IMG/VR virus record: IMGVR_UViG_3300029915_000003
Direction: 5' to 3' (one strand)
Length of the DNA: 64,000 nt
DNA from: a virus
Shown: one piece after another, positions 4,473-42,479 of the stretch
How the letters are laid out: every line of letters begins with the position of its first letter
Position numbering within the stretch: the stretch's first letter is position 1
Notes under the pieces: model-generated
Told to the model about the DNA's origin: nothing
The model's input: the letters and a program-made list of their open reading frames with translations, nothing else
Database searches by the model: none
Translations under genes and position numbers: made by a program

Positions 4473-4501
4473 TTGACAAACCAGCTTTGACGGAGTAGGA
4501 T
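4473..4501 (+). promoter_or_regulatory. sigma70-like promoter, probably leaderless for 4508
   Basis: TTGACA-17-TAGGAT, 6 nt before ATG. Confidence 0.7.
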
Positions 4502-4507
4502 GGTTTT

Positions 4508-4951
4508 ATGAATCCCAACCTGAAGAAGCTGGGTCACAAGCTTTCCAAGCAAAGTGGACATTCTTGGGCTAGGCATGCGGTTATTGTCATTAGGGGAGGG
4601 AATATCATCTCTACTGGTTATAACCATGCGGCGATTCATGCTGAATGGAATGCCTTGAATGCCCTTTGGCCTTCAGAGCGTAAAGGTACCACTGTTATTT
4701 CTTTGCGGTTTACCAAGACTGGTAATTTGGCATGTGCTCGTCCGTGTCCTAAGTGTCTAAAGTTCATGCTTGACAACGGAGTTAAGTGTGTTAAGTTCTC
4801 TGACTCCGAAGGTAAGATGGTGAAGGTCCGATTGTCTCAAGGAATGGATTATACCGGCACCAGATACCCTACCACCAACATGGAAGCTTTGCGTAAGACT
4901 CGTAGCGGGGCAGCCTATTATGGGTTGTCCCCCTTTAATATTGAAGATTAA
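4508..4951 (+). CDS. Zn-dependent cytidine/dCMP deaminase family protein
   Basis: GYN..HAE...RPCPKC. Confidence 0.85.
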   Translation: MNPNLKKLGHKLSKQSGHSWARHAVIVIRGGNIISTGYNHAAIHAEWNALNALWPSERKGTTVISLRFTKTGNLACARPCPKCLKFMLDNGVKCVKFSDSEGKMVKVRLSQGMDYTGTRYPTTNMEALRKTRSGAAYYGLSPFNIED

Positions 4952-7932: not shown

Positions 7933-8122
7933 ATACCATTTATGCCAACCAAAAGCCAAAGCGTTCGTCGGTACCTAGCCATCCTGTCCCTGTTAGACAA
8001 CCTGGAATCCTTTGATGAGGAGTTCGAGTTGGAACAGGATCTAAGCAAAACTTGGTACCAACTGACCCCTACGGAACAGCAAGAAATCCGCAAATCATAT
8101 AATTAACCTCAATTTTAAGCGT

Positions 8123-17786: not shown

Positions 17787-17815
17787 TTGACAAACACATC
17801 AGAGTAAGCTAGATT
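17787..17815 (+). promoter_or_regulatory. sigma70-like promoter followed by a leaderless 31-aa ORF (17822-17917)
   Basis: TTGACA-17-TAGATT, ATG 6 nt downstream. Confidence 0.65.
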
Positions 17816-17993
17816 ACGAACATGAGCCGCAACCAACACCAAACCTCTGGCTCTACAAGGCGTAAACCACCGCATGCTAACCGTCAGGTTGGAAAGACAC
17901 ATTACTCTTACTGGTAATTCTCGATAGTGTCCTGCCCGAGATGAGATTGATCGGGAAAACTCTTTTAAACCCAAACCAAAAGGAAACCGAATC

Positions 17994-27528: not shown

Positions 27529-28845
27529 ATGGCCAAAACCAATAAGAAGCAAACCAAAGTTTTCGTTCTTGATACAAATGTTCTTTTAAATGATTCCGAA
27601 GCTATTTTTAAGTTCGGGAATGCCAAGGTGGTTATACCTTGGGTTTGCTTATTGGAGCTAGATACCTTCAAAAAGGACGCTAGCGAGACCGGCAGGAACG
27701 CTAGGCAAGCTGCCAGGGCTTTGGATGAACTCAGGGAGAAAGGAAGCCTAGAGAAGGGTGTTGACCTAGAAAACGGTGGTTCCATCCAGATATTACACGC
27801 TGGTTCAGATTTGTTGGGAATCGACCTTACCCTACCAGACAATCAAATCCTTACTGTTTGCAAGGGACAATTAAACGTAACTCTGGTTTCTTGTGATATC
27901 AATCTCAGGGTCAGGGCTGACGGTCTAGGTATTCCTTCAGAAGACTATAAGGCTGGTACATCTGTTAGCTCGGATGGTTTGTATACTGGTTACAGGGAGT
28001 TTGTTGTTCCTAAATCAGATATAGATGAATTCTACCAGCACGGGGAACTAGAAATGCCGGATGTGGAATTTCATCCAAACGAATACGTATTACTACAAAA
28101 TGAAGAAAATCTTTCCAATACAGCTTTAGCTAGGTACGACGGAAACCTACAATTTTTGGTTCCGCTGATAGCCCTACCCAAAGATGGTGTTTGGGGCTTA
28201 AAGCCCAAAAACATGCAACAAAACTTTGCTTTGGATTTGCTACTAAATCCAGATATAAAGCTAGTTACATTGAGTGGTATCGCGGGTACGGGAAAGACCA
28301 TACTGTCCATAGCCGCTGGTTTGCAAATGACATTAGAAGAACAGATTTTTCAGAAAGTACTAATCGCTAGACCTATCATGCCTCTTGGTAAGGATATTGG
28401 GTATACTCCCGGAACTATTCAAGAAAAGATGGATCCGTGGATGCGTCCAGTGTATGATAATATCGAGTGTCTGATGAATTCAAACAAAAAAGGAAAAAAG
28501 GCAAATAATTCATATCAGGAATTTATCGATTTAGGGGTTTTACAGGTCGAACCTTTAACTTATATCCGTGGACGCTCAATCCCAAACCAATTTATGATAG
28601 TTGATGAGTGCCAAAATTTATCAATGCATGAAGTGCGTACTATATTAACAAGAATGGGCGACGGCTCCAAGATAATACTTACCGGAGATGTAAATCAGAT
28701 TGATAATCCCCATGTTGATTCAGAATCAAACGGTCTTACCAGAGTAATAGAAGCATTTAAAAATGAAAATATTTCTGGACATTCCGTCTTATCCAAAGGT
28801 GAAAGATCAGAGCTAGCAGAACTGTCAGCAAAACTATTAAAATAA
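27529..28845 (+). CDS. phoH: PIN-PhoH (PhoH2-like) protein
   Basis: LDTNV PIN domain; GIAGTGKT, YIRGRS, DECQN and GDxxQID motifs. Confidence 0.92.
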   Translation: MAKTNKKQTKVFVLDTNVLLNDSEAIFKFGNAKVVIPWVCLLELDTFKKDASETGRNARQAARALDELREKGSLEKGVDLENGGSIQILHAGSDLLGIDLTLPDNQILTVCKGQLNVTLVSCDINLRVRADGLGIPSEDYKAGTSVSSDGLYTGYREFVVPKSDIDEFYQHGELEMPDVEFHPNEYVLLQNEENLSNTALARYDGNLQFLVPLIALPKDGVWGLKPKNMQQNFALDLLLNPDIKLVTLSGIAGTGKTILSIAAGLQMTLEEQIFQKVLIARPIMPLGKDIGYTPGTIQEKMDPWMRPVYDNIECLMNSNKKGKKANNSYQEFIDLGVLQVEPLTYIRGRSIPNQFMIVDECQNLSMHEVRTILTRMGDGSKIILTGDVNQIDNPHVDSESNGLTRVIEAFKNENISGHSVLSKGERSELAELSAKLLK

Positions 28846-28906
28846 ATATGAGATACGGATATATTTCACAAACTTAGCTTTTAAAGTAAAGCCCAATTTT
28901 AACTAA

Positions 28907-29893
28907 ATGCCATTTCAGATACCCCACCCAGAAGAAGGACAAACTGGTTCAGAAAACATACACCTACCAGCCCTTAAAGAGCATTTATCTAGTCACGTTC
29001 CAGACTACAATAAGGCTCAAGACAAGTTCAAGGATCTACACTCTACAGATCAACTAAAACACTTACCCGAAGGTATAGGGGATCCGAACGAACAAGGGAA
29101 ATCTTGGAAATTATGGTTTAAAACCAAAGGTGAACCAAACGATAAACACATCATAAAGGACTTCCATGAAGCCCATTATAACCGTGATATAAGTAGGGGA
29201 TGGGCTGAAATGGCTACTAAATCATTATATCATGCCGGAGGTATAGGGCATTTAATACACAATGTACATGTATCCCACCTTCCTACCGACCAAACGGAAT
29301 CTCACCCATTTGTTACCATCAACATGGCCCACAAACATCTCCCTTTGGAAGATTCTTATGATCTTCTACAGGGTCTAAAGAACGATATCGATAATCCAGA
29401 GTCCGTTAGGAAGGCACACGAAGTCGCTGTAGGTATGAATCAAATTAATACCATGGACTATCTAACCGACAACAGAGATAGACACGGTTTAAATATGATG
29501 ATTTCTCCAGAAGGAAACCCCCTGGCAATAGATCATGGGCACTCATTTAACGGTCAATCTCCCAATGATTTCAGAAGTCATTATTTAGGTCATTCCAACA
29601 AATCAGTAAATACAGGAATAAGCACTCCGGAAGCTTTCCATGAAACCGCAGATTGGTGGCTAAAGAACAAAAACCGTATACAATCCGATTTTAACCAATT
29701 ATTAAATAAAACCATCGTAAATCCAGCTGTTCGTGACGCAATGCACGATAGATTTACCAAAAAGTTCAACATGGTAGATAAGTTCCACTCCAGAGCTTAC
29801 CAAAACATCCCCTACATAAACGCAGAAACAGATGCATATAAAAATAGAGACTATAGAGATGCTGAACATGAAAATGAATTCCACGTAAAGTAG
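28907..29893 (+). CDS. HipA/PI3-PI4-kinase-like protein, late promoter
   Basis: DYLxxNxDRHxxN..AIDHG. Confidence 0.75.
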   Translation: MPFQIPHPEEGQTGSENIHLPALKEHLSSHVPDYNKAQDKFKDLHSTDQLKHLPEGIGDPNEQGKSWKLWFKTKGEPNDKHIIKDFHEAHYNRDISRGWAEMATKSLYHAGGIGHLIHNVHVSHLPTDQTESHPFVTINMAHKHLPLEDSYDLLQGLKNDIDNPESVRKAHEVAVGMNQINTMDYLTDNRDRHGLNMMISPEGNPLAIDHGHSFNGQSPNDFRSHYLGHSNKSVNTGISTPEAFHETADWWLKNKNRIQSDFNQLLNKTIVNPAVRDAMHDRFTKKFNMVDKFHSRAYQNIPYINAETDAYKNRDYRDAEHENEFHVK

Positions 29894-30964: not shown

Positions 30965-31153
30965 ATGAAATACCCAATGTATTTAAGACTTTGTAAACAC
31001 TTATATGGTTTTGCAACCAAAGAATGGGGAACTGTTTTATTTGATTATTGTAACAAGGAATCTACTACACATATAACTGAGTATACATATAATTTGAAAA
31101 GTAGAGAATTTAAAATGATGCAAGCTTTAGAACTCGTCACAAATGGACCTTGA
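30965..31153 (+). CDS. RxCKH-family miniprotein
   Basis: MKYPMYLRLCKH..YC..YNLKSREF. Confidence 0.65.
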   Translation: MKYPMYLRLCKHLYGFATKEWGTVLFDYCNKESTTHITEYTYNLKSREFKMMQALELVTNGP

Positions 31154-31178
31154 CAATTCCGAACTAGTAATGTAGAGT
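31150..31178 (+). promoter_or_regulatory. sigma70-like promoter, leaderless for 31186
   Basis: TTGACA-17-TAGAGT. Confidence 0.65.
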
Positions 31179-31185
31179 GACTTTT

Positions 31186-31404
31186 ATGACCCAACCCATT
31201 CAGCCAAATTCAGTTAAGATCCAAATAGACAATCTACTTACCAACGAAACCACCAAAATGGCTGTCAATACAGAAGCCCAAGCCGAACTAGAACTACGAC
31301 GAAGGTTCGCACCGGCTCTTACAGATGTACCGGTGGGCAATTTGGAGGATGTTGTAGACAAGCTTAACGGTATTTCTTACTTGCAAGTTACCGTAGAACT
31401 ATAA
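31186..31404 (+). CDS. Stand-alone homolog of the N-terminal domain of kinase 33762
   Basis: Shared N..T.ET....V......E..LRR........VP.GNL pattern. Confidence 0.7.
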   Translation: MTQPIQPNSVKIQIDNLLTNETTKMAVNTEAQAELELRRRFAPALTDVPVGNLEDVVDKLNGISYLQVTVEL

Positions 31405-31414
31405 AGGGATAATT

Positions 31415-31732
31415 ATGGGTAGAAGAGATAAAGAACTAAGGTATTGTAATCATTGCCAAAAAGAAACGGTTTTTAGTGCAGATGTATCTGCCCTATTAAT
31501 TGATTCCGTTCTACTAAATGCTCCCTACCCCCTTATTCCGGAAGGTTCCTACCGTCTTTGCCAAGAAGCAGACTGTGATTCAATCTGGGTATTCGTTCAA
31601 AAAGCTATTGACTCCCATGAAGAACTCATGGTATTAAAGACGGACTGGTCTACAGCTTTGATTGTGTACGCAGATTTAAGTGGAAGTAAGTTAAACGCCA
31701 AACGAAGTAACGGCAATATTGGGGAAGTATAA
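31415..31732 (+). CDS. Hypothetical Zn-finger protein
   Basis: CNHC...CQEADC. Confidence 0.6.
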   Translation: MGRRDKELRYCNHCQKETVFSADVSALLIDSVLLNAPYPLIPEGSYRLCQEADCDSIWVFVQKAIDSHEELMVLKTDWSTALIVYADLSGSKLNAKRSNGNIGEV

Positions 31733-31738
31733 TTATAA

Positions 31739-31812
31739 TGGGGAATCGTCTAATGGCAGGACGCGGGACTTTGAATTCCGCTATTTTGGTTCGAGTCCAA
31801 ATTCCCCAACCA
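31739..31812 (+). tRNA. tRNA-Gln(TTG)
   Basis: CGGGA-CTTTGAA-TTCCG arm; U1-A72; encoded CCA. Confidence 0.92.
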
Positions 31813-31832
31813 AATTATTCAATAAATAATAT

Positions 31833-31907
31833 CGGAGTATAGGTAAGTTAGCATACCTTATGCTTTGGGAGCATAGATCCTTCGTGCAATTCGAAGTACT
31901 CCGACCA
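31833..31907 (+). tRNA. tRNA-Pro(TGG) with atypical D and T loops
   Basis: CGGAGTA/TACTCCG acceptor; TATGC-TTTGGGA-GCATA arm; T loop TGCAATT; encoded CCA. Confidence 0.82.
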
Positions 31908-31941
31908 CTTTTTCACCAACAATCCAACCCGAGGTAACAAA

Positions 31942-32604
31942 ATGCCTTCAAAAACTGTAGCAAAGAAGCAGTCCAAGGTCTCCAAGTCCAACGACAAGTT
32001 TGCCAAGATGTCCAAAGCAGAAAAGCGAGTAGAAATCGCAAAGGATGTCTTATTGCGACTAAAAGCCAAGAAACTGAAGGCTGAACACGGATCTTGGGTT
32101 AAAGGTACACTTAAAAATGCAATCAAAAATGCCAAACCAGAACAACAATTAAACAAGGTTATGCCTGAAGTTTGCAGGGTTTGTGCTCTGGGTGCGTGCT
32201 TTGTTGGAGCAGTGGGAAAGTTCAACCATTTGACTATCGGAGAGGCAAATGAAAAATATATTACATATAATTTAGGTCAGGAAGTATTTGACTACGATAG
32301 CAAAGTGGATTGTATTTCCACGGACTTAGATGTTGCTTTACCTCAACTCTACCTAAAGCGTTTCTTTTCCCAAAACCAAATGGCTTTAATTGAAAATGCC
32401 TTTGAAAATGGAGAGGGAGCCAATATGTATTGCTCCCTGAAAGAAGACAAGATGTATAATGCTTCTCAATATTTTCCAGAAGAATGTAAACCAAACGATC
32501 GTATCCGCCTATTAATGGAAAATATCATCCTTAATAAGGGTGAATTTAAGCTTAACTTACTTCCCGTCAAGCGCAAGGGTAAGTGGGTTCTGGAAAAACA
32601 ATAA
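31942..32604 (+). CDS. Phage hypothetical protein (CxVCALG type)
   Basis: GAGG SD; ORF track. Confidence 0.7.
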   Translation: MPSKTVAKKQSKVSKSNDKFAKMSKAEKRVEIAKDVLLRLKAKKLKAEHGSWVKGTLKNAIKNAKPEQQLNKVMPEVCRVCALGACFVGAVGKFNHLTIGEANEKYITYNLGQEVFDYDSKVDCISTDLDVALPQLYLKRFFSQNQMALIENAFENGEGANMYCSLKEDKMYNASQYFPEECKPNDRIRLLMENIILNKGEFKLNLLPVKRKGKWVLEKQ

Positions 32605-32605
32605 A

Positions 32606-33619
32606 ATGAATAAACCAGATTTATCGTATGACGATGTAGTATTGAAGCCCCGATATTCGACTCTTAGGAGTCGGTCTGAAGCCGATACGTCTGTATCCAT
32701 TAGTAATGGTATGGGGAAGACTATCACCCTAAAGGTACCTGTGTTAAGTGCCAATATGGATACAATTACAGAGGTAGCCACCGCCAAGGCCATGCATGAA
32801 GCTGGAGGTTTGGGATGTCTACATCGATACGCAGATGTGGATGTCACCCTTGCGTGGATTAAACAGCTAAAAGAACACAATACACCTCCATGTGTGTCTG
32901 TTGGGGTGGGTTCTGGCGAAGTAGACAAGGCCAAGCTATATATAGAGGCAGGAGCACAGGTTGTTATTGTAGATATAGCTCATGCCCACTCAATACAAAT
33001 GGGGGAAATGCTCAATAAACTACATGGGTTACCGAACCGTAAGGATTTTATCCTTATTGGAGGGAATGTAGCCACCAAAGAAGCAGCTGTCTATTTAGTA
33101 GACAATGGATGTGACGTAATTAAGGTTGGTATCGGACCGGGTATCGTTTGTACTACTACCAATGTAACAGGGCACGGCCGTCCCCAATTTACCGCCGTGG
33201 AAGAATGTGTAAATGCCGTTTCAGCCCTTTCTTACCGTAAAACAGTTAAGGTTATAGCTGATGGGGGCCTACGGAGCAGTGGAGATATTGTCAAGGCCCT
33301 AGCTGTTGGAGCGGACCTAGTTATGGTTGGAGGAATGCTAGCTGGCTGCGATGAATGCCCCAAAGACGCCCAAGGCCACACGGTCTACCGAGGTATGGCC
33401 AGTGCAGAGGCCCAACTAGATCACCACCGCTCAGTCCACAATGGAGCCCCAGAAGGAGTATCCAAGCCGGTTACACCTAAAGGTTCAATTGTCAAGGTCA
33501 TGGAAACCATTGCTGGAGGTATTCGGTCGGGGATGAGTTACAGTGGTGCTAGAACCCTCAATGAATTAGTCAACAAGGCAGAATTTACAATAACTACCAG
33601 TAATTTCAACAAAAAGTAA
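32606..33619 (+). CDS. IMP dehydrogenase/GMP reductase family protein
   Basis: SANMDT, DIAHAH, GNV, KVGIGPGxxCTT, ADGG and YRGMAS motifs; no CBS domains. Confidence 0.9.
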   Translation: MNKPDLSYDDVVLKPRYSTLRSRSEADTSVSISNGMGKTITLKVPVLSANMDTITEVATAKAMHEAGGLGCLHRYADVDVTLAWIKQLKEHNTPPCVSVGVGSGEVDKAKLYIEAGAQVVIVDIAHAHSIQMGEMLNKLHGLPNRKDFILIGGNVATKEAAVYLVDNGCDVIKVGIGPGIVCTTTNVTGHGRPQFTAVEECVNAVSALSYRKTVKVIADGGLRSSGDIVKALAVGADLVMVGGMLAGCDECPKDAQGHTVYRGMASAEAQLDHHRSVHNGAPEGVSKPVTPKGSIVKVMETIAGGIRSGMSYSGARTLNELVNKAEFTITTSNFNKK

Positions 33620-33761
33620 AAAATGGAAATACTATTCATCAGTTTTGGTATAACAATTCTATTAGCTACGTTAATCCCTTTAATTGAACTATTTATCGAT
33701 AAGAGGAAATAAAATGCTATTGACAATTTGTGCATTGGTCGGGTCCCAATTTTAAAGGGTA

Positions 33762-35045
33762 ATGGCTACCGTAGATATATTCAACACCCAAACCCAAGAG
33801 ACTTTTGAACTAGAGGTCTCCAATTCGGAAGAGTTGGAGATCTATCTACGTAGAAATATTAAATTCCTTAACAATAATGTACCTTTTGGTAACTTAGCCA
33901 AATGTTTGCAACTAATAGAAGATGATGGTAATTATCTATTAGACTTCTCCAAAGCAGAAGAGTTGTTTGACTCAATTCCAACTCAAAACATACCAGAAGC
34001 CATAGAATCAGACCTAAACAGCCACGCCCTTAGCAATTTAGGTAAATCAGAGTCTAGCGTACTGGAAGAAGAGTACGGTATCAAACCAGATAAATGGGCC
34101 AAAGTCCTAGGTAATAATCTCAAACCATTTAACCCAAAATTAGTAGCACCAAAGGTTATAAGTCCTTGGAATCAGGACGGAATAACCTTCTCCAAAGCCA
34201 TCAGATCTGCGTTTGATGCAAATAAAGTACATTACGTACATTTAGGTGGGAAGCACAGTAATGGTAGCATGGTAGCGTTTGATCCATCTACCAAAATACG
34301 TTACCTATTAAAGCCAGGATTTGGAGAGTCTTCTCCTGCGGCTGGTATTAGGGAAACCCCCTACACTCAATCTCAACGAGAAACGGCCTTTTACCATGCA
34401 TCTGTTTCCATGGATTTAGGTAATTATTTACCTGAATGCCAAATGTTGTTGTTTGATGGCAAGGAAGTTGCTTGCATAAAAATGCTTCCGGACTACTTTG
34501 TAAATTACGTGGACTTCACTACTGAAGACCAGTTTTTAGGTAGAGAAGTTCTGGAAAACTATTTGGTTTCAGGAACCCTACATAAATGGGCTGTCATGGA
34601 TTACGTTCTCGGGAACGTAGATAGGCACAGCTCCAACCTAATGGTGGGTAGACCCAAAGGCAACAGCAGCGACGGGAATAAAGGCGTCACTGTTCGCCTA
34701 ATAGACCACGGTAGCACCTTGGCTGGTTTGGGTTTTGACCCAGCCAATGATCCTTCCAGCTATTTACCGTATTATTTACGTATGTGGAGTTCCATTTCCA
34801 AGTTCCAACGCTTGATCCCAAAAGACAGGTTTCACCAAATGCCCACAACTTCTTTGGAGGGTGAAAAGATTTTAAGAAACTGGTTCAAAGACCTTGATTT
34901 GGTTAAATTGGCATGGGTGTTAGAATCTTATGGAATAAACCCCCAACCCATGATTGCCCGTGCGACCCAAATACACCTAAATATGGCAAACGGAAGGCTG
35001 GATGAGGCAATAAACAAACTATGGGCTGGTTACGATAATCTTTAA
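33762..35045 (+). CDS. HipA/PI3-PI4-kinase-like protein, probably capsid-packaged
   Basis: YLLKP, RE, DYVLGNVDRHSSN and LIDHG motifs; late motif; FSK|AE and LGK|SE sites. Confidence 0.78.
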   Translation: MATVDIFNTQTQETFELEVSNSEELEIYLRRNIKFLNNNVPFGNLAKCLQLIEDDGNYLLDFSKAEELFDSIPTQNIPEAIESDLNSHALSNLGKSESSVLEEEYGIKPDKWAKVLGNNLKPFNPKLVAPKVISPWNQDGITFSKAIRSAFDANKVHYVHLGGKHSNGSMVAFDPSTKIRYLLKPGFGESSPAAGIRETPYTQSQRETAFYHASVSMDLGNYLPECQMLLFDGKEVACIKMLPDYFVNYVDFTTEDQFLGREVLENYLVSGTLHKWAVMDYVLGNVDRHSSNLMVGRPKGNSSDGNKGVTVRLIDHGSTLAGLGFDPANDPSSYLPYYLRMWSSISKFQRLIPKDRFHQMPTTSLEGEKILRNWFKDLDLVKLAWVLESYGINPQPMIARATQIHLNMANGRLDEAINKLWAGYDNL

Positions 35046-35048
35046 TAT

Positions 35049-35360
35049 ATGGAAATATCAGACAAACAAATCAAAGGCAAACCCAAAGTTGTAGGAAGTA
35101 CCGAAAATGGACCGGTACTGTCTATGACCACAAAGGGTGGATTGCATTTAATCCTAGGAATGAATAAGGGCGGCAAGACCGAAACTTTAGCTATGGGTTC
35201 GCATCCTGCACTTGCAAGGCATATAGCCTCCAAAAAAGCCGATATTACGTGGAATTCATTAGAAAAATCAGAAGCTAGGGATACCGAAACATTTAAAGAA
35301 CTAATCCCTAAATACGAAAAACTAACTGACGAAATTAGAGAATTAGAAAACAAGGAATAA
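35049..35360 (+). CDS. Late hypothetical (head-associated) protein
   Basis: Late motif; LEK|SE. Confidence 0.65.
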   Translation: MEISDKQIKGKPKVVGSTENGPVLSMTTKGGLHLILGMNKGGKTETLAMGSHPALARHIASKKADITWNSLEKSEARDTETFKELIPKYEKLTDEIRELENKE

Positions 35361-36216: not shown

Positions 36217-36948
36217 ATGATAGTATATGGATTAGTTTATGCTCTATTGGATCCTTTTGGAAAAATTAGATATATAGGTCAAACATGCGATACAATAGAG
36301 CAGAGATTTAAAGAACACCTATTTCCTTCAAATCTTAAAAATTTAGATCACAAAACCAATTGGATAAAATCATTATTATCAAAAAACCAAAAACCTACGA
36401 TAAGATTGCTTCAAGATAATATTCCTGTAAAATTCATAGAAACCAAAGAAAAACAATGGGATATGACTATTATTGATACCACTGAAACAGAATGGATTCG
36501 TCTATATAAACTAATTGGCGCAAAATTAACCAATAGCACAAATGGAGGGGGAGGTCAGCATGGAAGAATCCCAAGTAAAGAAACTTTACGTAAAATGTCT
36601 GAATCTCATAAGGGTAAAAACAATGGACCCGTAGCTGCTGCTAATATATCAAAAGCCTTAACAGGAAAGAAGAGAGCCCCATTTACAAAAGAACACAAAA
36701 GGAATATAGCGATAGGAGCTACAGGTAAGCTTCAATCAGAAGAATCAAAATATAAAAAATCAGTTACCTTGAAAGCAAACCAAAAGAACACAGAACATCT
36801 ACGTAAGCTATCGGAAGCAAGGAGGGGTGTGCCGCAAAGTCCAGAATTAATAGCAAAAAGAGTGGCTTCCTGTAAACTAACTCTTGAAAGAAACAAAAAA
36901 AAGAAAATAGATGCAATAAATGCTATATTTTCTTTTTTAATGTCTTAA
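36217..36948 (+). mobile_element. Free-standing GIY-YIG homing endonuclease with NUMOD3-like repeats
   Basis: VYAL..YIGQT..R..EH, LTNSTNGGG and SKETLRKMSESHKG motifs. Confidence 0.88.
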
Positions 36949-36969
36949 ACCGCAATTTTACCACTAAAT

Positions 36970-42457: not shown

Positions 42458-42479
42458 TAGACCCCAATTTTAAGGGAAT

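What the first reader, a model, noticed from the sequence alone, without database searches (positions are those of the whole stretch)
31186..33955. Early stand-alone copy of the kinase's N-terminal domain: possible kinase and inhibitor pair
Seen: 31186 (IDNLLTNETTKMAVNTEAQAELELRRRFAPALTDVPVGNL) aligns without gaps to the N-terminus of kinase 33762 (IFNTQTQETFELEVSNSEELEIYLRRNIKFLNNNVPFGNL). In the kinase, that domain ends at a putative cleavage site FSK|AE. The kinase has the late motif, while the small gene has its own sigma70-type leaderless promoter. Established: HipA-family kinases are toxic and controlled by partner domains or proteins. Inference: the N-domain is an auto-inhibitory or packaging prodomain removed in the capsid, and the early free copy switches the injected kinase off.
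Basis: partly seen in the sequence, partly recalled or inferred. Interest (0 to 1): 0.72.

Follow-up and report, generated by a model that had tools for sequence, protein, structure and literature searches.

The report
Free-standing copy of phage kinase cap domain
A 72-residue phage gene is a real stand-alone copy of the small domain that caps a nearby kinase. It belongs to a large, undescribed family of such "cap" proteins found only beside the kinase genes of Mx1-like phages, probably as detachable regulators of those kinases, but no binding or inhibition has been shown.

Summary
ORF 31186-31404 (72 aa) is a true paralogue of the ~62-aa N-terminal domain of kinase 33762-35045:
- BLASTP E 1e-5, and a shuffle test gives z 7.9.
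- A profile built only from 56 other kinases ranks it first of 1,044 window ORFs (E 9e-5).
- AlphaFold2 gives both copies the same beta-beta-alpha-alpha-beta fold.

A profile search of 1.84 billion proteins finds 287 clusters. About half are 58-94-aa stand-alone proteins. The rest are N-terminal domains of two PI4K-like kinase types, sometimes with NUDIX. The family is absent from Pfam and PHROGs and has no clear fold match.

In relatives, stand-alone copies (up to three in tandem) sit between the two kinase genes. Several have sigma70-like promoters placed for leaderless mRNA, as in the window. The domain is present in 12 of 12 loci that carry the second kinase type. It is absent in 22 of 22 loci where the kinase is the tail of a polyprotein. 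It always ends at a near-invariant [LIMVF]-x-K-[SATG]-[ED] site.

The kinase is PI4KII/CtkA-like rather than HipA proper. My best reading is a detachable regulatory subunit, analogous to HipS-HipT, held with moderate-to-low confidence. Earlier scan notes covered the Lys motif on other DNA. None that I could read covered this family.

The parts
31150..31185 (+). Sigma70-like promoter string TTGACA-17 nt-TAGAGT, ending 7 nt before the ATG. This spacing predicts a leaderless mRNA.
   Evidence: The pattern TTGACW-N16-18-TANNNT-N5-8-ATG occurs 5 times in the window against 0.29 expected, and 0 of 100 shuffles reach 5. The same geometry precedes stand-alone copies in L011, L018, L021 and L027. Function is not shown.
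31186..31404 (+). Stand-alone cap-domain gene of 72 aa (P0123). A 9-residue N-terminal tail is followed by a beta-beta-alpha-alpha-beta domain that ends at the stop codon.
33747..33754 (+).
   Evidence: All five + strand copies lie 5-9 nt before a gene start (8123, 28907, 33762, 36970, 42480). The total count is not above chance and timing is unknown.
33762..33944 (+). Fused cap domain of the kinase, residues 1-61.
33945..33959 (+). Boundary motif F-S-K64|A-E, a candidate processing site.
   Evidence: In polyprotein-type relatives homology to the kinase starts at this column. Split genes stop here. Cleavage itself is not shown.
34038..34052 (+). Second L-G-K95|S-E motif inside the low-confidence linker.
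   Evidence: linker residues 62-130 have pLDDT 42-68.
34152..35045 (+). PI3/PI4-kinase-like catalytic core (type K2), residues about 131-427.
   Evidence: Pfam PF00454 scores 35.8 bits against a cut-off of 27.1. D287, N292 and D315 are invariant. Foldseek finds PI4KII-alpha at E 8e-8 and CtkA at 9e-6.
28907..29893 (+). Second kinase (type K3, 328 aa) without a cap domain. It is a possible alternative partner of the free copy.
   Evidence: In L010 the closest relative of the small ORF (P0166) starts 2 nt after a K3 gene. In L007 the cap domain is fused to a K3 kinase.

Best explanation
Shown: ORF 31186-31404 encodes a free-standing member of an undescribed family of ~60-residue beta-beta-alpha-alpha-beta 'cap' domains. 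The family is confined to the kinase locus of Mx1-like ~160-170-kb phages. It exists in two interchangeable forms. One is the first domain of PI4K-like kinases (types K2 and K3, sometimes with NUDIX or GNAT modules), tethered by a low-confidence, probably flexible linker that starts at a conserved [LIMVF]-x-K-[SATG]-[ED] site. The other is a separate small gene beside those kinases. Inferred: the cap domain is a detachable regulatory subunit of these kinases. It would act in cis when fused and in trans when made from its own sigma70-like promoter. I favour inhibition, in the manner of a pro-domain or of HipS, over activation or targeting. In this window the free copy would act on the capped kinase 33762 once the cap is removed at K64, or on the uncapped kinase 28907. 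Binding, the direction of regulation, cleavage and timing are all inferred.
For: - Paralogy and fold.
- Family size and architecture: 287 clusters in total. Of the 148 best examined, 73 are stand-alone proteins of 58-94 aa and the rest carry the domain at residue 1 with few exceptions.
- Fusion and fission between the domain and kinases: at least about 22 state changes on the domain tree.
- Fused and split orthologues differ exactly at the K site. P0049/P0057 are fused, whereas L010 8862-9074 is a separate gene whose stop overlaps the kinase ATG.
- Restriction to the kinase locus: no other copies in five whole contigs, two of them complete genomes.
- Co-occurrence: the domain is present in 12/12 loci with K3 and a separate K2 gene, and absent in 22/22 loci where K2 is the tail of a polyprotein. 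Whole-genome checks agree. The two classes are interspersed on the K2-core tree, with at least 6 changes.
- Own promoter-like sites before free copies in five lineages. Tandem arrays of three occur in L018.
- The stand-alone lineage of the window copy (P0166, P0215, P0187, P0209) is kept in other phages and is sister to the cap domains of the window kinase's closest relatives.
- Precedent for a free copy of a kinase's N-terminal part acting as its inhibitor: HipS/HipT (PMC6581861, PMC10627512, PMC9325769).
Against: - There is no physical evidence of any kind.
- Phages whose K2 is embedded in a polyprotein have no cap domain at all, so the kinase does not universally need it.
- The domain also precedes a NUDIX module (P0250, P0205), which fits a general N-terminal leader as well as a kinase regulator.
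- The 70-residue low-confidence linker gives no sign that the cap docks on the core, and the model output gives no contacts.
- The window copies lack the family's signature residues (the E-G turn, P-W, Q-Q).
- Co-occurrence could reflect cassette inheritance rather than function.
- The domain tree rests on 73 columns and is weakly resolved.
Confidence: 0.4

Rival explanations
1. The fused cap is an auto-inhibitory pro-domain cut off at FSK|AE inside the capsid, the active kinase is injected, and the early free copy then switches it off.
For: The Lys motif at the boundary is conserved. The kinase sits at the head of the structural block, followed by a conserved ~103-aa protein and a virion structural protein. 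The two genes have different upstream motifs. HipS/HipT is a precedent.
Against: In L021, L027, L004 and L010 the free copy abuts the kinase gene and would be co-transcribed with it. Tandem triplicates are not needed for a timed switch. Cleavage, packaging and toxicity are all unshown. No terminator-like site separates 31404 from 33762 apart from one inside a tRNA gene and one inside an ORF, so the kinase may also be read from the upstream promoter.
Confidence: 0.15
2. The cap is an N-terminal leader or assembly module that brings cargo (kinase, NUDIX) into the prohead and is then cut off. Free copies are small head-core or scaffold-like proteins that co-assemble through cap-cap contacts.
For: The domain is almost always at residue 1. 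It is followed by a protease-type motif. In other phages it is replaced by upstream polyprotein modules that end at the same site. It occurs on different cargo types. Propeptide removal from ejected head proteins is known in other large phages (PMC10052503).
Against: Free copies carry no cargo. Other presumed cargo proteins of the same genomes lack the domain. Free copies have sigma70-like rather than structural-gene-type upstream motifs.
Confidence: 0.2
3. The cap is a small effector in its own right, for example a binder of a host protein or defence factor. It would be supplied both as an early free protein and as a cleavage product of the kinase precursor. Its link to kinases would reflect a shared target or substrate recruitment.
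For: It is a small, mostly acidic protein: pI 4.5 for the window copy and a median of 5.5 for 74 free copies. Tandem diversifying arrays occur. Free copies have their own promoters. The best, though weak, fold neighbours include an anti-CRISPR C-terminal domain and ERH dimers (Z 4.3-5.3).
Against: The fold matches are within noise. The strict restriction to the kinase locus and the perfect co-occurrence with K3 are not expected of an independent effector.
Confidence: 0.2
4. The small ORF is a decaying remnant of a duplicated kinase gene and has no function.
For: The window copy is divergent and lacks the family's signature residues.
Against: The frame is intact and ends exactly at the domain end. 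The fold is confident (pLDDT 91). Orthologous free copies exist in other phages. There are 73 free-standing clusters of near-constant length.
Confidence: 0.03

Closest known systems
HipBST toxin-antitoxin system (HipS/HipT) of E. coli O127 and Legionella (PMC6581861, PMC10627512, PMC9325769)
   Same: A small free-standing protein that corresponds to the N-terminal part of a longer kinase is encoded beside a kinase of the PI3/4K-HipA fold class. In HipBST that small protein is the inhibitor. Fused and split forms both exist in nature.
   Different: The cap domain is about 60 aa with a different fold, and HipS and the HipA N-subdomain did not appear in the fold searches. The window kinase keeps its own copy. 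There is no HipB-like DNA-binding third gene. The context is a lytic-type large phage rather than a chromosomal toxin-antitoxin module. Toxicity and neutralisation are untested.
Propeptide-like inhibitors: free-standing homologues of protease pro-domains (subtilisin-propeptide-like and cathepsin-propeptide-like inhibitors; recalled from memory, not checked here)
   Same: The logic matches. An N-terminal domain removed on maturation also exists as a separate gene product that acts on the mature enzyme in trans.
   Different: Those enzymes are proteases, not kinases. There is no sequence or fold relation. Removal of the cap domain is only inferred here.
Head-packaged, protease-processed phage proteins (T4 internal proteins and Alt with capsid-targeting sequences; SPN3US propeptides, PMC10052503)
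   Same: An N-terminal piece is followed by a short conserved site recognised by the prohead protease, on enzymes encoded next to head genes.
   Different: The known leaders are short peptides, not a folded 60-aa domain that is also encoded as a separate gene family. The motif here has Lys at P1. Processing is not demonstrated for this phage.
PI4-kinase type II alpha and H. pylori CtkA (solved structures 4hne, 3akl)
   Same: These are the nearest solved folds to the kinase core (Foldseek E 8e-8 and 9e-6). The DRHxxN and IDHG catalytic motifs are kept.
   Different: Sequence identity is 12-14 %. Neither has the cap domain, and the substrate of the phage kinase is unknown.

Membership tests
Kinase-associated cap-domain family (defined in this report; not in Pfam or PHROGs) | Profile match across the whole ~62-residue domain | tested here: met
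   E 9.3e-5 with a profile that excludes all window sequences and E 2.3e-4 in 12,720 ORFs. P0123 scores 58 bits in the 1.84-billion search, but that profile included it.
Kinase-associated cap-domain family (defined in this report; not in Pfam or PHROGs) | Beta-beta-alpha-alpha-beta fold, at the very N-terminus or free-standing and ending at the last strand | tested here: met
   AlphaFold2 pLDDT 91 with the matching order of elements. The ORF stops one residue after the last strand.
Kinase-associated cap-domain family (defined in this report; not in Pfam or PHROGs) | Signature residues of the consensus (E-G after strand 2, P-W in helix 1, Q-Q before strand 3) | tested here: not met
   Both window copies lack them (A-V/E-V, A-P/K-F, G-I/D-G). 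They are divergent members that share a V-P-x-G-N-L loop with P0166 and P0215.
Kinase-associated cap-domain family (defined in this report; not in Pfam or PHROGs) | Location inside the K3-K2 kinase locus | tested here: met
   The window order is K3 28907, free copy 31186, capped K2 33762. The same holds in 11 related loci.
PI3_PI4_kinase (Pfam PF00454) | HMM score above the curated cut-off, with catalytic DRHxxN and DxG motifs | tested here: met
   35.8 bits against a cut-off of 27.1. D287, N292 and D315 are invariant in 79 homologues. PI4KII-alpha is the best solved match.
HipA kinase family (Pfam HipA_C PF07804, HipA_2 PF20613) | HMM match to a HipA model | tested here: not met
   P0002 has no HipA hit at E <= 1. 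A few relatives carry weak, sub-threshold HipA hits (P0084, P0205).
HipA kinase family (Pfam HipA_C PF07804, HipA_2 PF20613) | Closest solved fold is HipA | tested here: inconclusive
   HipA (3tpv) ranks 48 and HipT (7ab4) ranks 50, at E about 4e-4, behind PI4KII, CtkA and PI3K. The fold class is shared but this is not the closest match.
HipBST-type split-kinase toxin-antitoxin system | The small protein is homologous to HipS or the HipA N-subdomain | tested here: inconclusive
   No HipS or HipA N-subdomain appears among the listed fold matches. Absence from a list does not exclude it.
HipBST-type split-kinase toxin-antitoxin system | The kinase is toxic and is neutralised by the small protein | not testable with these tools
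   This needs expression experiments.
Prohead-protease-processed head cargo | Conserved short motif at the module boundary | tested here: met
   [LIMVF]-x-K-[SATG]-[ED] in 71-77 of 77 kinases. Gene fissions and polyprotein junctions fall at the same column.
Prohead-protease-processed head cargo | The same motif at the capsid protein's maturation site, and the protein present in virions in cut form | not tested
   The capsid and protease genes lie outside the window and no whole genome was held. Only unchecked scan notes bear on this.

The most novel reading that the evidence does not exclude
The cap domain is a new class of kinase pro-domain and trans-inhibitor. Large Mx1-like phages would carry PI4K-like kinases into the next host in a capped or processed form, and would set the kinases' window of activity with a dedicated family of ~60-aa free cap proteins made from host-type promoters. 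This would be a phage-borne functional analogue of HipS/HipT that arose independently and has been fused and split many times at a protease site.
Probability: 0.2. Interest if true: 0.75.

Novelty: new variant of a known kind. Interest (0 to 1): 0.55.

Why it matters
If the cap proteins do regulate the kinases, this defines a widespread, unannotated family of at least 287 sequence clusters. That family would offer a handle on how large phages control enzymes that they may deliver with their DNA. It would also give a clean natural example of a regulatory domain that switches repeatedly between fused and free forms at a processing site. Even without a mechanism, the family, its strict linkage to a two-kinase cassette and its boundary motif can be used at once to annotate Mx1-like phage genomes. 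They also help in choosing constructs for kinase biochemistry, for example a core starting at residue 65 or about 131, with or without the free protein.

Tried and rejected
- Complex prediction (small protein with full-length kinase, alignments A5 and A3) was closed, so no binding test was run.
No whole genome is held for this window.
- A word-based homologue search with the 72-aa protein found only itself. The family was reached only through profiles.
- The search for related loci with stand-alone alignments A3 and A4 failed for lack of a conserved stretch. With P0003 alone it found nothing.
- The window has no near-identical DNA match in the phage collection.
- Mx1 itself shows no cap domain. 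Its kinase begins with a GNAT-like module.
- Pfam and PHROGs gave no hit for the small protein or for nine canonical family members. The ESM Atlas gave only unnamed viral clusters.
- Fold searches (Foldseek PDB, VIA-align wide, BFVD) gave only noise-level matches to ERH, the AcrIIA15 C-terminal domain and the GIY-YIG core. The best were Z 5.3 and E 2e-3. I do not claim any of these folds.
- The idea that the small ORF is simply the split-off cap of the K3 kinase was considered. By sequence it groups with caps of K2 kinases. By position its nearest relative follows a K3 gene. This is left open.
- The promoter scan of 28-37 kb shows no overall excess of sigma70-like sites (32 against 25.5). Only the specific leaderless geometry is enriched.
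Full report
**Setting.** The window is part of an uncultured phage with nearly all long ORFs on the + strand, six tRNAs and a tail sheath. It has no near-identical DNA match in the phage collection. Its kinase finds Myxococcus phage Mx1 'kinase' at 39 % identity. Earlier scan notes call it a ~163-kb peat relative of Mx1. The region of the finding holds these genes in order:
- a PI3/4K-like kinase without N-terminal domain, 28907-29893 (type K3);
- six Cys-rich mini-genes;
- the 72-aa ORF 31186-31404;
- a 105-aa ORF;
- tRNA-Gln and tRNA-Pro;
- a 220-aa ORF;
- an IMPDH/GMP-reductase-family gene;
- the 427-aa kinase 33762-35045 (type K2);
- a 103-aa ORF and a virion structural protein.

**Observation.** The reported ungapped alignment is real: 15/42 identical, E 1e-5, and z 7.9 against 2,000 shuffles. 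The stronger test is independent of the window kinase. The kinase has 162 homologues in the word-indexed database, and most begin with the same ~62-residue segment. An HMM of 56 of these N-termini ranks the small ORF first among all 1,044 ORFs of the window, E 9.3e-5, over HMM positions 2-63. The window kinase's own N-terminus scores only 4.5 bits. AlphaFold2 folds the small protein with pLDDT 91 as strand-strand-helix-(short helix)-helix-strand. Residues 2-61 of the kinase model have the same order. They are followed by a low-confidence linker (62-130) and a confident core (131-427).

**The family.** A profile of 21 copies searched against 1.84 billion representative proteins gave 287 clusters at E <= 1e-3. 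Of the 148 best that I examined, 73 are free-standing proteins of 58-94 aa. Most are 60-61 aa and end on the last strand. A further 49 were identified at once as kinases, and the domain starts at residue 1 with few exceptions. A later classification of 214 domains gave 111 on K2-type kinases, 7 on K3-type, 74 free and 22 other. The 'other' group includes NUDIX (P0250) and NUDIX-kinase (P0205) proteins. Pfam, PHROGs and the ESM Atlas have no name for the family. Three fold searches gave only noise-level matches.

**Relatives.** Thirty-eight IMG/VR loci encode a K2 relative.
- *Positions of free copies.* L018 has three in tandem with GTGA overlaps. L021, L027 and L004 each have one abutting the capped kinase. 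L010 has two and L011 has one.
- *Restriction to the locus.* Whole-contig searches find no copies away from the kinase locus.
- *Two classes of loci.* In 12 loci, including the window, a K3-type kinase lies upstream, K2 is a separate gene and the cap domain is present. In 22 loci K2 is the C-terminal module of a 670-1,680-aa protein, and there is no strong K3 and no cap domain.
- *Whole-genome checks.* Seven near-complete class-B genomes were searched for K3 and five of them for the cap domain. Three class-A records, two of them complete, agree.
- *Phylogeny.* On a tree of K2 cores the two classes are interspersed, with at least 6 changes. The link is therefore not obviously one inherited event, although cassette exchange cannot be excluded.

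**The boundary.** In 77 aligned capped kinases the residues after the last strand read [LIMVF] (77/77)-x-K (76/77)-[SATG] (71/77)-[ED] (72/77). In polyprotein-type relatives the homology to K2 starts at exactly this column (HMM position about 64-65). Natural gene fissions fall there too. P0049 and P0057 read ...HPFLGK|AM... as one chain. In L010 the free gene ends ...HPFLRG-stop, and the kinase gene, overlapping it by one base, starts M-R-T-Y-L-S-K|A-A. Several free proteins end HPF[LV]xx. K3 genes without a cap begin just before an L-x-K. This is what a processing site or module joint would look like. Earlier scan notes propose the prohead protease as the agent. I could not test that claim, because the capsid and protease genes are outside the window.

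**Promoter strings.** TTGACA-17-TAGAGT ends 7 nt before ATG 31186, with no Shine-Dalgarno sequence. That geometry occurs five times in the window against 0.29 expected. Near-consensus versions precede the free copies of L018, L021, L027 and L011. The kinase has CAATTTTA 7 nt before its ATG. All five + strand copies of that octamer lie 5-9 nt before gene starts, including the K3 kinase. Both motif classes would give leaderless mRNAs. These are sequence patterns only. In L021, L027, L004 and L010 the kinase follows the free copy without a gap, so co-transcription is likely there.

**Where the window copy belongs.** Among 213 domains its best matches are the free proteins P0166 (L010) and P0215 and the window kinase's own cap. 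The kinase cap's best free-standing match is the window ORF. On the tree the window ORF groups with four free proteins (P0166, P0215, P0187, P0209) and P0256, a 676-aa protein of unclassified type. That group is sister to the caps of P0002, P0004, P0005, P0007 and P0132 (support 0.83). The duplication is therefore older than this phage and the free lineage has been kept. In L010, P0166 starts 2 nt after a K3 gene. In L007 a K3 kinase carries the cap fused. The uncapped K3 kinase at 28907 is thus a candidate partner as well.

**Interpretation.** Repeated fusion and fission with kinases points to a protein that works physically with these kinases. So do the strict confinement to the kinase locus, the co-occurrence with the two-kinase cassette, the own promoters and the tandem amplification. 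The HipS/HipT precedent and the pro-domain-like position make inhibition the most natural direction. The kinase itself is PI4KII/CtkA-like, and HipA is a more distant member of the same fold class. Leader/assembly and independent-effector readings remain open, and I give them about 0.2 each.

**Verdict.** The scan had already noted the Lys motif and the kinases on this and other genomes.

Noticed in passing
window 8110-8117, 28894-28901, 33747-33754, 36953-36960, 42465-42472: All five + strand copies of CAATTTTA lie 5-9 nt before a gene's ATG, usually as CCAATTTTAA, leaving no room for a ribosome-binding site. This may be the -10-like element of a phage-specific promoter class that gives leaderless mRNAs.
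   Followed up: partly
window 4473-4510, 17787-17824, 31150-31188: TTGACA-17-TAnnnT-5-8 nt-ATG occurs three times on the + strand (five on both strands, against 0.29 expected). This suggests a set of host-type promoters that start transcription at the start codon.
   Followed up: partly
window 33623-33712: A 29-codon ORF encoding a strongly hydrophobic peptide sits between the GMP-reductase-like gene and the kinase.
   Followed up: no
window 35049-35360: A 103-aa protein directly after the kinase is conserved in the same position in L010 (10857-11180). Mx1 has a 103-aa hypothetical protein in the same place. The window and L010 proteins both carry an L-x-K-S-[ED] motif.
   Followed up: no
window 32606-33619: An IMPDH/GMP-reductase-family gene (Pfam PF00478, E 2e-84) lies between the free cap gene and the kinase. 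It is probably an auxiliary nucleotide-metabolism gene.
   Followed up: no
window 36217-36948: A GIY-YIG/NUMOD3 homing-endonuclease-like gene is inserted between virion structural genes.
   Followed up: no
window 27529-28845: A PIN-PhoH fusion protein is encoded just upstream of the K3 kinase.
   Followed up: no
L018 9069-9530: In this relative a macro-domain-like ORF, recognised by eye from its translation, has its own TTGACA-17-TATAAA-6-ATG string. It lies between the triple cap array and the kinase.
   Followed up: no
L010 4218-10846: This relative carries three kinases and two free cap genes in the order K3, cap, 686-aa protein, K3, cap, GNAT-K2. None of the kinases is capped.
   Followed up: partly
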